The notes: a model not told the origin generated them from the sequence alone. A DNA stretch of 63,099 bases from Clostridia bacterium (GCA_017381715.1 JAFOBR010000010.1:1-63099); one strand, 5' to 3'. Counted from the first letter of the stretch, positions 14,551 through 16,148 are shown. Translations and numbers: made by a program.

Positions 14551-14730
14551 GGCAGGGATTAATCTGCCTTCAGTCGATGCTTTGCGAAGCAAAGTTACCT
14601 TTCCTTTTATCTCTTCTCTCTTATCTTTTCTCCGGAAACGACAATTTGAGAGAAGAGAGAAGACCGAAAAGAGAAAAGTGAAAAGAACAAAAAAACGACA
14701 ATCTTCTAAAAGAAAATTGTCGTTTATTTT
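14551..14730. repeat. Structured intergenic element: GCGAAGC mini-hairpin, inverted 7-nt pyrimidine/purine repeats and terminal hairpin
   Basis: GCTTTGC-GAA-GCAAAGT; TTTTATC/TCTTCTC/TCTTATC/TTTTCTC opposite GAGAGAA/GAGAGAA/GACCGAA/AAGAGAA/AAGTGAA; AAACGACAAT...ATTGTCGTTT. Confidence 0.65.
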
Positions 14731-14786
14731 GCGAAAGACTACCTAAACGGAGCAGAATTGAGGTAAGAAAGCCTAAAAGTACACCA

Positions 14787-15251
14787 CTATTTCTTATAGA
14801 AATTGATGTGCAAATGCTCCTCAAGACCAAACCGTTCCATAATATAGTGATTAACAATATAATTTGATGTATGCCACTGTTCGCAGGGGTGTCCTCCAAT
14901 CGAGGCGGAGGTAGTTATTAAGGGCTTGCCGTATTGTTTTCTTAATATACCAGATAATTGTGCAAACGATTCGTTAATATCATAGGAATCAGATAAGTAA
15001 TACTCTTGTGGACGGAATATTTCAATAAACTCAATCTTTAACGCGTTGAAATGAACTCCAAACATGAGAGGTATATTACAACCAAACGCTCTGCCTTCGA
15101 ATGTAATATATCCATCTGTAACAAGTGTATATTCAATAGTTGATGCTTTTAGTAAATCAATAAAGGAGTGCGTGTCAGGTGAAATAGCAATTTGCGGAAA
15201 GTCGATCACAAAAGTAGGATTTGTATTATTCTTTTTCAAAAAGGAGAACAT
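14787..15251 (-). CDS. Hypothetical AT-rich protein
   Basis: 154-aa ORF with AAGGTGGTG SD and its own promoter. Confidence 0.7.
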   Translation of the reverse strand: MFSFLKKNNTNPTFVIDFPQIAISPDTHSFIDLLKASTIEYTLVTDGYITFEGRAFGCNIPLMFGVHFNALKIEFIEIFRPQEYYLSDSYDINESFAQLSGILRKQYGKPLITTSASIGGHPCEQWHTSNYIVNHYIMERFGLEEHLHINFYKK

Positions 15252-15271
15252 AGTATCACCACCTTGTAAAA

Positions 15272-15299
15272 ATTATATCATAGAAATGCTACATTTCAA
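15272..15299 (-). promoter_or_regulatory. sigA promoter of the 14787-15251 gene, containing a GAAATG-N3-CATTTC palindrome
   Basis: TTGAAA-N16-TATAAT with extended TG. Confidence 0.55.
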
Positions 15300-15302
15300 T
15301 GA

Positions 15303-15493
15303 TATATCGCTGACGCGATATGATAAGTGAAGTTTGGCTGCGCCAAGTGAAGTTATGCCTTACGGCATAGTGAAGTATTGTGCTTTCGCACAAAGTGAAG
15401 TTAAGTGTGCCACCCACGCCCGCAGGCACTTCACTGCGCAGCAACTTCACGATGCGTTAGCATCGCTTATCGTGCCGCAAGGCACACTTAGTT
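15303..15493. repeat. REP/BIME-like array of ACTTCAC heptamers alternating with GNA/GNNA-loop mini-hairpins
   Basis: GTGAAGT at 15327, 15347, 15370 and 15395; ACTTCAC at 15428 and 15444; short hairpins between them. Confidence 0.8.
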
Positions 15494-15538
15494 GAAAAGA
15501 AACACCCTTTGTCCGGTAGACAAAGGGTGTTTCTTTTC
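15494..15538 (-). terminator. 20-bp perfect hairpin directly after the tRNA CCA
   Basis: GAAAAGAAACACCCTTTGTC-CGGTA-GACAAAGGGTGTTTCTTTTC. Confidence 0.8.
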
Positions 15539-15621
15539 TGGTGCGGCTGATGGGACTTGAACCCATACGGTTGCCCACACGCCCCTCAAACGTGCGCGTC
15601 TGCCTGTTCCGCCACAGCCGC
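15539..15621 (-). tRNA. tRNA-Leu(GAG)
   Basis: GCGGCTG acceptor stem, TGGCGGAACAGG D-arm, CACGT-TTGAGGG-GCGTG anticodon arm, variable arm, GTTCAAG T-loop, encoded CCA. Confidence 0.95.
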
Positions 15622-15634
15622 GTGAACATTCACT

Positions 15635-15662
15635 ATTATACTCACAAAATCAAATTTGTCAA
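15635..15662 (-). promoter_or_regulatory. tRNA promoter
   Basis: Consensus TTGACA-N16-TATAAT with an A-rich UP element. Confidence 0.85.
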
Positions 15663-15770: not shown

Positions 15771-16148
15771 TTACAGTCCAAAACTGACGTTTAACGCTTC
15801 GTTCACCTGCTGCATGGTGGTGTCATCAAGATGCCCCATTTTATCTTTAAGCCGTTTTTTATCCAGAGTACGTATTTGCTCAAGCAGTATTATGGAATTT
15901 TTTGCCAGACCGCATCCCGGCGCTTTTCCGCCACCGATACTGTCACCGGTAACCTCAATATGTGTTGGCAGACGCGCTTTTCCGGTCTGCGACGTTATTG
16001 CTGCGGCAATAACCGTGGGACTGTGTCTGTTTCCCACATCGTTCTGAACGATCAGAACGGGTCTTACACCGCCTTGCTCCGATCCCACTACGGGTGAAAG
16101 ATCGGCATAATATATATCTCCGCGCCGTATTACAGTTTGTTCGTTCAC
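15771..16148 (-). CDS. mazF: PemK/MazF family endoribonuclease (NdoA/EndoA-like), with no adjacent antitoxin
   Basis: [55 protein letters not shown]. Confidence 0.95.

What the first reader, a model, noticed from the sequence alone, without database searches (positions are those of the whole stretch)
15303..15538. tRNA-Leu-abutting array of ACTTCAC heptamers alternating with GNA/GNNA mini-hairpins, in two divergent halves
Seen in sequence: the minus strand reads ACTTCAC-TTTGTGC(GAAA)GCACAAT-ACTTCAC-TATGCC(GTAA)GGCATA-ACTTCAC-TTGGC(GCA)GCCAA-ACTTCAC-..ATATCGC(GTCA)GCGATAT. The plus strand reads ACTTCAC-TGC(GCA)GCA-ACTTCAC-GATGC(GTTA)GCATC..GTGCC(GCAA)GGCAC. The stems differ in sequence but keep their pairing, and the G-N(N)-A loops closed by C-G lie on the strand carrying ACTTCAC. 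A long-range pair TAAGTGTGCC/GGCACACTTA (15402/15481) is also possible, and a 20-bp perfect hairpin touches the tRNA CCA. Established: C(GNA)G loops are exceptionally stable in ssDNA, and motif-plus-hairpin units in inverted arrangement define REP/BIME elements handled by HUH (RAYT/IS200-type) nucleases. Inference: this is a non-autonomous ssDNA-processed element, a recombination-site array or a structured ncRNA that targets tRNA 3' ends, with any enzyme encoded elsewhere.
Basis: partly seen in the sequence, partly recalled or inferred. Interest (0 to 1): 0.75.

Follow-up and report, generated by a model that had tools for sequence, protein, structure and literature searches.

The report
Heptamer-hairpin repeat behind a tRNA gene
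This is a diverged copy of a known but unexplained repeat family (Gut-1), built of seven-letter words separated by tiny hairpins, which marks small gene cassettes parked just behind tRNA genes in gut Clostridia.

Summary

The array has a name. It is a sub-threshold match to Rfam Gut-1 (RF01706; 35.2 bits against a cut-off of 50). Paralogues in the same genome pass the cut-off, and relatives reach 83-91 bits.

Gut-1 as curated is only one arm. The real unit is a 165-190 bp element with two inverted arms, of three and four heptamers, plus a covarying long-range helix. My model found it in 60 of 151 genomes of the order, in many copies.

It lies immediately after a tRNA or tmRNA gene plus a terminator hairpin in 20 of 54 cases. 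It lies just upstream of small cargo genes, most often a PF05635 four-helix-bundle (Avd/IVS-like) gene.

The window copy belongs to an ~806-bp cassette (hairpin, element, promoter, ORF154) that a same-genus genome lacks.

PF05635 genes without this element carry contiguous 7-bp repeats instead (11 of 12 sampled). I therefore read the heptamers as protein-binding words and the hairpins as foldable spacers.

The REP/RAYT reading is not supported: the genome has no Y1 transposase, reverse transcriptase or serine recombinase. The function is inferred, not shown.

The parts
15539..15621 (-). tRNA-Leu(gag); its CCA end touches the hairpin below
   Evidence: ARAGORN; Rfam tRNA 49.5 bits; perfect sigma-70 promoter at 15662..15635
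15494..15538 (.). Perfect 20-bp hairpin flanked by A- and T-runs (terminator-like). It is the first part of the inserted cassette. A similar hairpin precedes nearly every family member.
   Evidence: I1; absent at the same site in same-genus genome G008; a hairpin abuts the element's left end in all rows
15327..15493 (-). Two-armed heptamer/hairpin element (Gut-1 family), read 5'-3' on the minus strand: end word AACTAAGT, then a degenerate three-unit arm, a centre, then the four-unit arm
   Evidence: my covariance model R1: 114.7 bits, E 1.6e-25; Rfam Gut-1 35.2 bits on 15297-15381
15428..15493 (-). Three-unit arm. It holds the end word 15486-15493, terminal hairpin 15472-15485, a decayed heptamer 15465-15471, hairpin 15451-15464, heptamer 15444-15450, hairpin 15435-15443 and heptamer 15428-15434.
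   Evidence: alignment A1
15402..15427 (-). Centre: a small hairpin 15418-15427, plus the 10-nt segment 15402-15411 that pairs with 15481-15490
   Evidence: I8; family-wide, 98.0% of 749 cells pair and 8 of 10 pairs have compensatory changes, in a helix that was not part of the model
15327..15401 (-). Four-unit arm: heptamers at 15395, 15370, 15347 and 15327, with hairpins 15377-15394, 15354-15369 and 15334-15346
15272..15326 (-). Junction to the cargo gene: a further hairpin 15304-15321 flanked by a second heptamer type, then the promoter TTGAAA-16-TATAAT (TG-extended) at 15299..15272
   Evidence: the same promoter design follows the last heptamer in many relatives
14787..15251 (-). ORF154, the cargo gene of this cassette. 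It is a hypothetical protein with no family. A paralogue (78% DNA identity) sits in a second cassette on contig C101.
14732..14786 (-). Conserved cassette tail ending in CA. Past it, the sequence rejoins what follows the tRNA directly in G008.
   Evidence: the same tail type ends cassettes with other cargo (C101, L283)

Best explanation
The array is a diverged member of the Gut-1 family. A full Gut-1 element is a 165-190 bp unit of two inverted arms, each a run of one 7-nt word alternating with short hairpins whose sequence is free but whose pairing is kept. A long-range helix ties the outer end to the centre. These elements are the conserved front module of small gene cassettes: a long hairpin, the element, a promoter fused to the last heptamer, one small gene, and a short tail ending in CA. 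The cassettes accumulate directly behind tRNA and tmRNA genes in gut Oscillospirales-type Clostridia. The prototype cargo is a PF05635 four-helix-bundle (Avd / 23S-IVS-protein-like) gene. I read the heptamers as the working parts, namely binding words for a cognate protein, most likely the PF05635 protein of the cassette lineage. I read the mini-hairpins as foldable spacers. When folded (as single strands, or extruded from supercoiled DNA) they bring the heptamers side by side, reproducing the contiguous heptad arrays found in front of other PF05635 genes. The window copy is an orphan site. It sits between the tRNA-Leu terminator hairpin and the ORF154 promoter, inside an ~806-bp cassette that a same-genus genome lacks. 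Shown here: family identity, architecture, covariation, position, the insertion/deletion difference, and the linkage to PF05635 and to heptad arrays. Inferred: protein binding, the folding state, and how cassettes are inserted.
For: Identity. Gut-1 matches the window copy at 35.2 bits, E 1.8e-5. It matches paralogues at 56.2 and 50.7 bits and relatives at 83-91 bits, with the other arm matching on the opposite strand. Architecture. 24 elements align end to end. Model R1 finds 10 full copies in this genome (115-166 bits) and hits 60 of 151 genomes. Structure. 93.1% of 4400 cells pair (shuffles 69.9%, slid partners 35-46%), and 45 of 60 pairs change on both sides. The unmodelled long-range helix pairs in 98.0% of cells. 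Position. 20 of 54 elements lie 32-45 nt behind a same-strand tRNA of many identities, and others lie behind tmRNA. Arrays of 2-3 units follow tRNA-Ala, tRNA-Tyr and tmRNA. Cassette. G008 has the tRNA CCA joined directly to what lies at window 14731. G003 lacks ~1 kb of the C101 locus. The same tail ends cassettes with different cargo. PF05635. The gene lies 27-75 nt downstream of the element in at least 18 places, by my reading. Four of these were confirmed by Pfam. Three of the 4 PF05635 loci in this genome are preceded by an element. Of the 60 element-bearing genomes 53 have PF05635, against 18 of 91 others. Heptads. Of 12 PF05635 genes from genomes without an R1 match, 11 carry contiguous period-7 arrays just upstream and 1 carries a hairpin-spaced array. 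The word differs from gene to gene. Protein subfamily tracks heptamer type.
Against: No binding was tested. The element-PF05635 association is partly trivial, because the two are neighbours inherited together and kin are not independent. The window copy and most GTGAAGT-type copies in this genome have no PF05635 gene next to them. The only such gene beside a GTGAAGT-type copy (C51:6098-6412) carries an internal stop. Some family members run straight into a ribosome-binding site with no room for a promoter (C76 and C51; L002, L288). In those the element must be transcribed, which favours an RNA role there. The predicted heptamer-to-heptamer pairing between arms is not confirmed by fine-scale covariation: mixed elements give G-T or A-C at the predicted partners. 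No recombinase can be tied to the cassettes. The cassette ends rest on two pairwise comparisons.
Confidence: 0.45

Rival explanations
1. It acts as RNA, which is the original Gut-1 reading. This could be a structured non-coding RNA, a 5' leader of the cargo mRNA, or a tRNA 3' trailer. In this model the long-range helix closes a multi-stem junction whose single-stranded joints are the heptamers, perhaps bound by the PF05635 protein for autoregulation or processing.
For: Weinberg et al. 2010 list Gut-1 as an RNA candidate (table passages and supplement search). Hairpins and the long-range helix covary strongly. Some copies abut a ribosome-binding site with no promoter in between. Metatranscriptome contigs cover parts of the element (15346-15408, 15419-15495).
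Against: In the window the element lies after a terminator-like hairpin and before the next promoter, and no plus-strand promoter was found. Many cassettes place the promoter after the last heptamer. Both strands carry equivalent features. G-T and A-C mismatches are equally rare (39 against 39 outside the central hairpin), and G..A loops sit on opposite strands in the two arms. The RNA contigs are low-depth, unstranded, and may be DNA carry-over.
Confidence: 0.25
2. The heptamers are arm-type sites of an attachment site used by a tyrosine integrase. The cassettes would then be integrase-less mini integrative elements that accrete in tandem at tRNA and tmRNA 3' ends.
For: The elements show exact placement behind CCA, tandem units, and duplicated tRNA or tmRNA 3' fragments in front of some units (L277, L279, L297, L300). 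The only recombinase-type hits in this genome are two Phage_integrase matches.
Against: No integrase lies in or beside the cassettes examined. Arm-type sites do not explain seven covarying hairpins. Both arms lie on the same side of the junction. The two integrase genes were not examined further.
Confidence: 0.12
3. This is the first reader's model: a REP/BIME- or PATE-like element handled as single-stranded DNA by an HUH (RAYT / IS200-type) nuclease encoded elsewhere.
For: The unit is a motif plus a hairpin in inverted arrangement. It is multi-copy and intergenic. C(GNA)G-type loops predominate on the motif-carrying strand. Insertion is next to a fixed short end (CA) with no target duplication seen.
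Against: Y1_Tnp was not found in this genome. It was not found in 38 of 60 element-bearing genomes, and it shows no association with the element (odds ratio 1.6, p 0.21). Hairpin sequences are not conserved, as they are in REPs. Only PF01797 was tested, so other HUH families were not searched.
Confidence: 0.08

Closest known systems
Gut-1 RNA motif (Rfam RF01706; Weinberg et al. 2010, PMC2864571; I saw table passages and the Stockholm alignment in the supplement)
   Same: Both have three hairpins of free sequence separated by a conserved GUGAAAU-like heptamer. Paralogues and relatives of the window copy score above the family cut-off.
   Different: The window copy uses GTGAAGT and scores only 35.2 bits. 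The curated 77-nt motif is one arm of a two-armed element. It was known only from human-gut metagenomes, listed as a likely non-coding RNA with no function. Here it is placed in genomes, behind tRNA genes and in front of PF05635 genes.
REP/BIME elements with RAYT transposases (recalled knowledge)
   Same: Both are short motif-plus-hairpin units in inverted arrangement, multi-copy, intergenic and near terminators.
   Different: REP palindromes are conserved in sequence and go with a Y1 HUH gene. Here the stems vary freely, and no Y1 gene is present or associated.
Heptad-repeat parS/operator arrays of plasmid pSM19035 bound by the omega (ParB) dimer (PMC9499535, passages read)
   Same: Both are 7-bp words in direct and inverted order that work as an array. 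That paper finds at least four contiguous repeats are needed. Contiguous heptads stand in front of 11 of 12 PF05635 genes sampled.
   Different: In the Gut-1 type the heptads are separated by hairpins. The candidate binding protein is a four-helix bundle, not a ribbon-helix-helix protein. No partition ATPase is involved.
23S rRNA intervening sequences and DGR Avd (PF05635 relatives; PMC4990558 abstract in a search listing, PMC10053308 passage)
   Same: In all three a PF05635-type gene rides in a small selfish insert tied to a stable-RNA gene or a retroelement.
   Different: Here the insert lies behind tRNA or tmRNA genes, not inside rRNA. No reverse transcriptase was found in this genome.
Integron attC sites and pneumococcal BOX elements (recalled knowledge)
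   Same: In both, structure is conserved more than sequence. They are modular repeats, and attC sites flank arrays of single-gene cassettes.
   Different: Core-site boxes and an integron integrase were not looked for. The cassettes here bring their own promoters and sit behind tRNA genes.

Membership tests
Rfam Gut-1 (RF01706) | Score at or above the curated gathering cut-off (50 bits) | tested here: not met
   The window copy scores 35.2 bits, E 1.8e-5. Two paralogues in the same genome score 56.2 and 50.7. Relatives score 83-91 bits.
Rfam Gut-1 (RF01706) | Hairpins of variable sequence separated by a conserved GUGAAAU-like heptamer | tested here: met
   The cmscan alignment covers the full model 1-77. 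Model R1, built from 24 family members (the window copy itself among them, so its score is partly by construction), scores the window copy 114.7 bits.
REP/BIME with RAYT | A Y1 HUH transposase (PF01797) in the same genome | tested here: not met
   There were 0 matches in G000, which is 95% complete. PF01797 is present in 22 of 60 element-bearing genomes against 24 of 91 others.
REP/BIME with RAYT | A palindrome conserved in sequence, with a fixed flanking tetranucleotide | tested here: not met
   Stem columns show up to four pair types each. Only the heptamers are fixed.
Heptad-array operator / centromere (omega type) | Contiguous 7-bp repeats without gaps | tested here: not met
   The window heptamers are 9-18 nt apart. 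Contiguous arrays do occur before 11 of 12 other PF05635 genes.
Heptad-array operator / centromere (omega type) | A cognate DNA-binding protein that binds the heptads | not testable with these tools
   Only adjacency and co-occurrence with PF05635 were shown.
Integrase attachment site at a tRNA gene | An integrase gene within or beside the inserted element | tested here: not met
   The window cassette holds only ORF154. The two Phage_integrase hits lie on other contigs.
Integron attC / cassette array | Conserved core sites and an integron integrase | not tested
   Arrays of element-plus-gene units were seen. Core boxes and IntI were not searched.

The most novel reading that the evidence does not exclude
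PF05635 four-helix-bundle proteins (the Avd / 23S-IVS-protein family, function unknown outside DGRs) are sequence-specific readers of 7-nt words. Together with their heptad arrays they form a widespread class of tiny selfish cassettes that home to the 3' ends of stable-RNA genes. The Gut-1 motif would be their landing or control site, read in a folded (hairpin-extruded) state. This would explain at one stroke an orphan Rfam family, the orphan PF05635 genes, and the hypervariable DNA behind tRNA genes in gut Clostridia.
Probability: 0.2. Interest if true: 0.8.

Novelty: new variant of a known kind. Interest (0 to 1): 0.6.

Why it matters
Gut-1 has sat in Rfam since 2010 as a gut-only motif with no organism, context or function. 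This window, with its relatives, gives it three things. First, host genomes. Second, a full two-armed architecture with an independent covarying helix. Third, a fixed address, behind tRNA/tmRNA genes and in front of small cargo genes.

It also supplies a concrete candidate partner, the PF05635 (Avd-like) protein, whose genes are generally preceded by 7-nt repeat arrays.

That turns two function-unknown families into one hypothesis that can be tested by a gel-shift experiment. It also points to a source of strain-level variation next to tRNA genes in abundant gut bacteria.

My paper searches for Gut-1, PF05635 and its names, and tRNA-linked repeats returned nothing on this link by title or listing; I opened five papers. 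Most subscription journals are not covered.

Tried and rejected
RNA evidence. One run search and one read-laying gave only unstranded Logan contigs at low depth over parts of the element. This says nothing on strand, ends or true transcription.

Strand from wobble pairs. G-T and A-C mismatches are equal, 39 against 39 outside the central hairpin. The control is equally clean: the upstream terminator-like hairpins give 746 Watson-Crick, 9 G-T and 5 A-C. Scarcity of G-U therefore does not discriminate DNA from RNA here.

Rod model. Energy folding and RNAalifold pair the heptamers of the two arms. Elements with mixed heptamers do not compensate at the predicted partners. I do not claim that pairing.

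Enzymes in this genome. There was no Y1_Tnp, no RVT_1 and no Resolvase. There were two Phage_integrase hits that I did not follow.

Other collections. The phage collection gave one weak partial hit, and the plasmid collection gave none. The loose pattern scan of viral contigs gave mostly chance hits and one true element, L144.

Other dead ends. ORF154 has no Pfam family and only 'hypothetical' look-alikes. An NCBIfam scan failed on a wrong coordinate and was not repeated.

Full report
OBSERVATION. GTGAAGT stands four times on the plus strand (15327, 15347, 15370, 15395). Its complement ACTTCAC stands twice (15428, 15444). Every spacer between them is a small palindrome. The segment 15402-15411 pairs perfectly with 15481-15490. 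A perfect 20-bp hairpin (15494-15538) abuts tRNA-Leu(gag) at 15539-15621 on the minus strand. Six of the ten exact heptamer matches in 63 kb lie within 124 bases, whereas shuffles give 5.3 for the whole window. Either strand folds as DNA with z about -8, and 0 of 200 shuffles do as well.

IT HAS A NAME. A permissive Rfam scan gives Gut-1 (RF01706) on 15297-15381 at 35.2 bits, below the cut-off of 50, E 1.8e-5, over the whole model. The Gut-1 consensus is exactly this design: hairpins of free sequence separated by GUGAAAU. In the window's own genome (G000: 1.8 Mb, 102 contigs, 95% complete) the same model gives 21 matches at E<=10, two of them above the cut-off (56.2 and 50.7 bits). In relatives it reaches 83-91 bits. 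Weinberg et al. 2010 list Gut-1 as a likely RNA, not cis-regulatory, seen in human-gut metagenomes only, with 43 representatives. I saw the table passages and the Stockholm file but no discussion of function. The only other paper in the library that mentions it uses it as a folding benchmark.

THE REAL UNIT IS LARGER. A heptamer-cluster scan of the genome found about eleven loci, all with a run of GTGAAGT followed by a run of ACTTCAC. Variants with other heptamers also turned up.
- Read on the strand that Rfam models, the unit runs in this order: an end word (AACTAAGT), a terminal hairpin, three heptamer-hairpin units, a central hairpin, a 10-nt segment complementary to the outer end, then four units of the complementary heptamer.
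- Twenty-four elements from this and other genomes align end to end.
- A covariance model built from them (R1: 176 positions, 60 pairs) finds ten full copies in G000 at 115-166 bits, plus four weaker ones.
- R1 matches at E<=1e-6 in 60 of 151 genomes sampled from the order. The distribution by family is patchy: 5/5, 6/7 and 4/4 in some, 0/7 in five others. Many matches lie at contig ends.
- The curated Gut-1 motif corresponds to the three-unit arm. The four-unit arm matches Gut-1 on the opposite strand.

STRUCTURE IS UNDER SELECTION. On 75 elements aligned to R1, 93.1% of 4400 cells form standard pairs, against 69.9% in shuffles and 35-46% with slid partners. Forty-five of 60 pairs change on both sides. 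That alignment is fitted to the model, so the cleanest test is the long-range helix, which the model did not contain. There, 98.0% of 749 cells pair (shuffles 75.2%, slides 20-54%), and 8 of 10 pairs are compensatory with up to four pair types. The window copy itself shows such a compensated variant. This helix competes with the terminal hairpin for the same bases, so two alternative pairings are both conserved.

WHICH STRAND, DNA OR RNA?
G..A loops of 3-5 nt sit on one strand in the three-unit arm (54/75, 51/75, 61/75) and on the other strand in the four-unit arm (37/74, 43/75, 42/74), with 0-1 on the wrong strand.
- G-A mismatches follow the same rule.
- Because the arms are inverted, each strand carries one arm of each kind. 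The rule shows selection on the loops in both arms, but it does not by itself pick a strand.
- G-T and A-C mismatches are equally rare, 39 each outside the central hairpin. The neighbouring terminator-like hairpins are just as clean (746 Watson-Crick, 9 G-T, 5 A-C). Scarcity of G-U is therefore not diagnostic.
- Energy folding pairs the heptamers of the two arms into a rod with branching hairpins. Elements with mixed heptamers do not compensate at the predicted partners. I do not rely on that fold.
- In the window the element lies after a terminator-like hairpin and before the next promoter (TTGAAA-16-TATAAT with TG, 15299..15272), and no plus-strand promoter was found. RNA-library contigs touch parts of it but are unstranded and thin.

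ADDRESS. Of 54 elements with enough upstream sequence, 20 have a same-strand tRNA gene ending 32-45 nt upstream. The tRNAs are of many kinds: Gln, Leu, Tyr, Pro, Arg, Asn, Ser, Ala, Lys and Val. Others follow tmRNA, or a duplicated tRNA/tmRNA 3' fragment. Several of these sites are the same locus in related genomes, so the count is not of independent events.
- In every case a long hairpin, usually with A- and T-runs, lies between the ...CA end and the element's first base.
- Arrays occur. Three units with small genes between them follow tRNA-Ala in one genome. Two units follow tRNA-Tyr in another, and two follow tmRNA in a third.
- In G000, 35 tRNA/tmRNA genes were found, and ten are followed within 280 nt by four or more copies of one 7-mer. 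Six of those ten (behind tRNA-Tyr on C11, tRNA-Leu on C22, tRNA-Val on C51, tRNA-Arg on C62, tRNA-Val on C76 and tRNA-Leu on C101) I read as arrays of this superfamily. The same 7-mer test flags 273 of 5000 random windows.

IT IS PART OF A CASSETTE.
- In same-genus genome G008 the tRNA-Leu CCA is followed at once by the sequence that in the window starts at 14731 and runs downward. So 14732-15538 is present in one genome and absent in the other. This ~806-bp stretch holds the hairpin, element, promoter, ORF154 and a tail ending in CA.
- A paralogous ORF154 (78% DNA identity) lies on contig C101. It is preceded by tRNA-Leu(caa), a terminator and an element of a second heptamer type, and followed by a terminator and a GTGAAGT-type element.
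- Genome G003 lacks about 1 kb there and keeps only the first small hairpin.
- At the window's tRNA-Leu site other relatives carry other elements and other genes.
- Cassettes with different cargo end in the same tail types.
- In many cassettes the -35 box of a good promoter is fused to the last heptamer. In some a ribosome-binding site follows directly.

THE PF05635 LINK. The most frequent gene right behind the element is a four-helix-bundle protein of Pfam PF05635, the 23S rRNA-intervening-sequence protein family.
- Eight of the 55 elements listed have it as the first downstream gene (a ninth row reaches the same gene across the next unit). Four of these were confirmed at 71-90 bits.
- Comparing the coordinate tables, I count at least 18 places where the gene starts 27-75 nt after an element on the same strand.
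- In G000, three of four PF05635 loci are preceded by an element, and one of them carries an internal stop.
- Across the 151-genome sample the counts are: both 53, element only 7, gene only 18, neither 73 (odds ratio 31). All 19 genomes with ten or more R1 matches have the gene. This is partly a consequence of adjacency, and kin are not independent.
- The closest solved relative is an uncharacterised protein, 2RLD, with five chains. A review passage notes that PF05635 resembles the DGR accessory protein Avd.

HEPTADS ARE THE COMMON DENOMINATOR. I took twelve PF05635 genes from twelve genomes that had no R1 match. Eleven have contiguous period-7 tandem arrays directly upstream, of 4 to about 10 copies. 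Several have a second, inverted block, and two stand behind a tRNA plus terminator. The twelfth has a hairpin-spaced array that R1 had missed. The 7-nt word differs from gene to gene. Among hairpin-spaced elements the protein subfamily tracks the heptamer type. So a 7-nt word repeated in direct and inverted order is the general companion of PF05635 genes, and the Gut-1 type is the version in which the words are separated by mini-hairpins.

MECHANISM, AS INFERENCE. I read the words as binding sites for the cognate PF05635 protein. The closest worked example is the pSM19035 heptad array, where at least four contiguous 7-bp repeats in direct or inverted order are needed for the bound protein to act (passages of PMC9499535). 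Hairpin spacers of variable length (9-18 nt in the window) would scatter the words on B-DNA. Folded in a single strand, or extruded from supercoiled duplex, they would bring the words side by side. That would explain why pairing is conserved while stem sequence and length are not. Whether the complex controls the cassette promoter, helps insertion behind ...CA ends, or both, is open. In the window the site looks orphaned.

RIVALS. An RNA role keeps real weight, about 0.25, because some copies must be transcribed. An integrase attachment-arm reading (0.12) fits the duplicated tRNA ends but not the hairpins. The REP/RAYT reading (0.08) fails its tests. This genome has no Y1 transposase, reverse transcriptase or serine recombinase. 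Across the order Y1_Tnp shows no association: 22/60 against 24/91.

LIMITS. No binding, folding or transcription was measured. The organism names I can cite come only from MAG record titles (Clostridia, Oscillospiraceae, Acutalibacteraceae, Christensenellaceae, Ruminococcus and others from animal and human guts). R1 misses other heptamer types, so 60 of 151 is a lower bound. One planned check, for inverted heptads downstream of PF05635 genes, was not completed.

Noticed in passing
window 14600-14731: A second, unrelated multi-copy repeat: a long CT-rich/GA-rich imperfect hairpin just after the resident terminator. This stretch alone matches many places in related genomes (query positions 1-131) and draws many weak hairpin-type Rfam hits.
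   Followed up: no
window 15771-16148 (-): A PemK/MazF-type toxin gene (Pfam, 122.5 bits) lies just upstream of the tRNA-Leu promoter. No antitoxin partner was looked for.
   Followed up: no
L277, L279, L297:5787-6002, L300:2690-2838: Between a tRNA/tmRNA terminator and the next unit lies a 95-130-nt GC-rich spacer. It ends in a 20-25-nt copy of that tRNA's own 3' end including CCA. The spacer's 5' part pairs with that copy. Rfam has no match for it. It may be an attachment-site remnant or a tRNA-end mimic.
   Followed up: partly
downstream of elements in L271, L272, L273, L274, L278, L290, L299, L300, L301: A conserved ~75-nt tail follows gene-less units. It contains a T-arm-like GTTCGAAT motif and ends in ...ACA, directly before the next unit's hairpin.
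   Followed up: partly
G000 C101:9100-9290, C76:1530-1730, C51 after tRNA-Val, C62 after tRNA-Arg: A second element type uses TATATCAT / ATGATATA words and has the two arms in swapped order: the arm with G..A loops comes first. In this genome it is the main type behind tRNA genes, and R1 does not detect it.
   Followed up: partly
L144 (viral contig), about 1176-1400: This is the one clear element found on an IMG/VR contig. It is followed at once by four tandem copies of an 11-nt repeat.
   Followed up: no
L323, L326, L327: Here the heptad array and PF05635 gene start right at the stop codon of an upstream gene whose 3' ends look alike in the three genomes. The cassette seems inserted within an operon rather than behind a tRNA.
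   Followed up: no
window 15274-15306: A 15-nt inverted repeat (93% complementary) overlaps the ORF154 promoter and may be an operator (I2).
   Followed up: no
L283:650-1100 (-): In one cassette the PF05635 gene is followed in the same direction by a second small gene that looks MazG-like to my eye (not scanned). The same tail type as in the window cassette comes after it.
   Followed up: no
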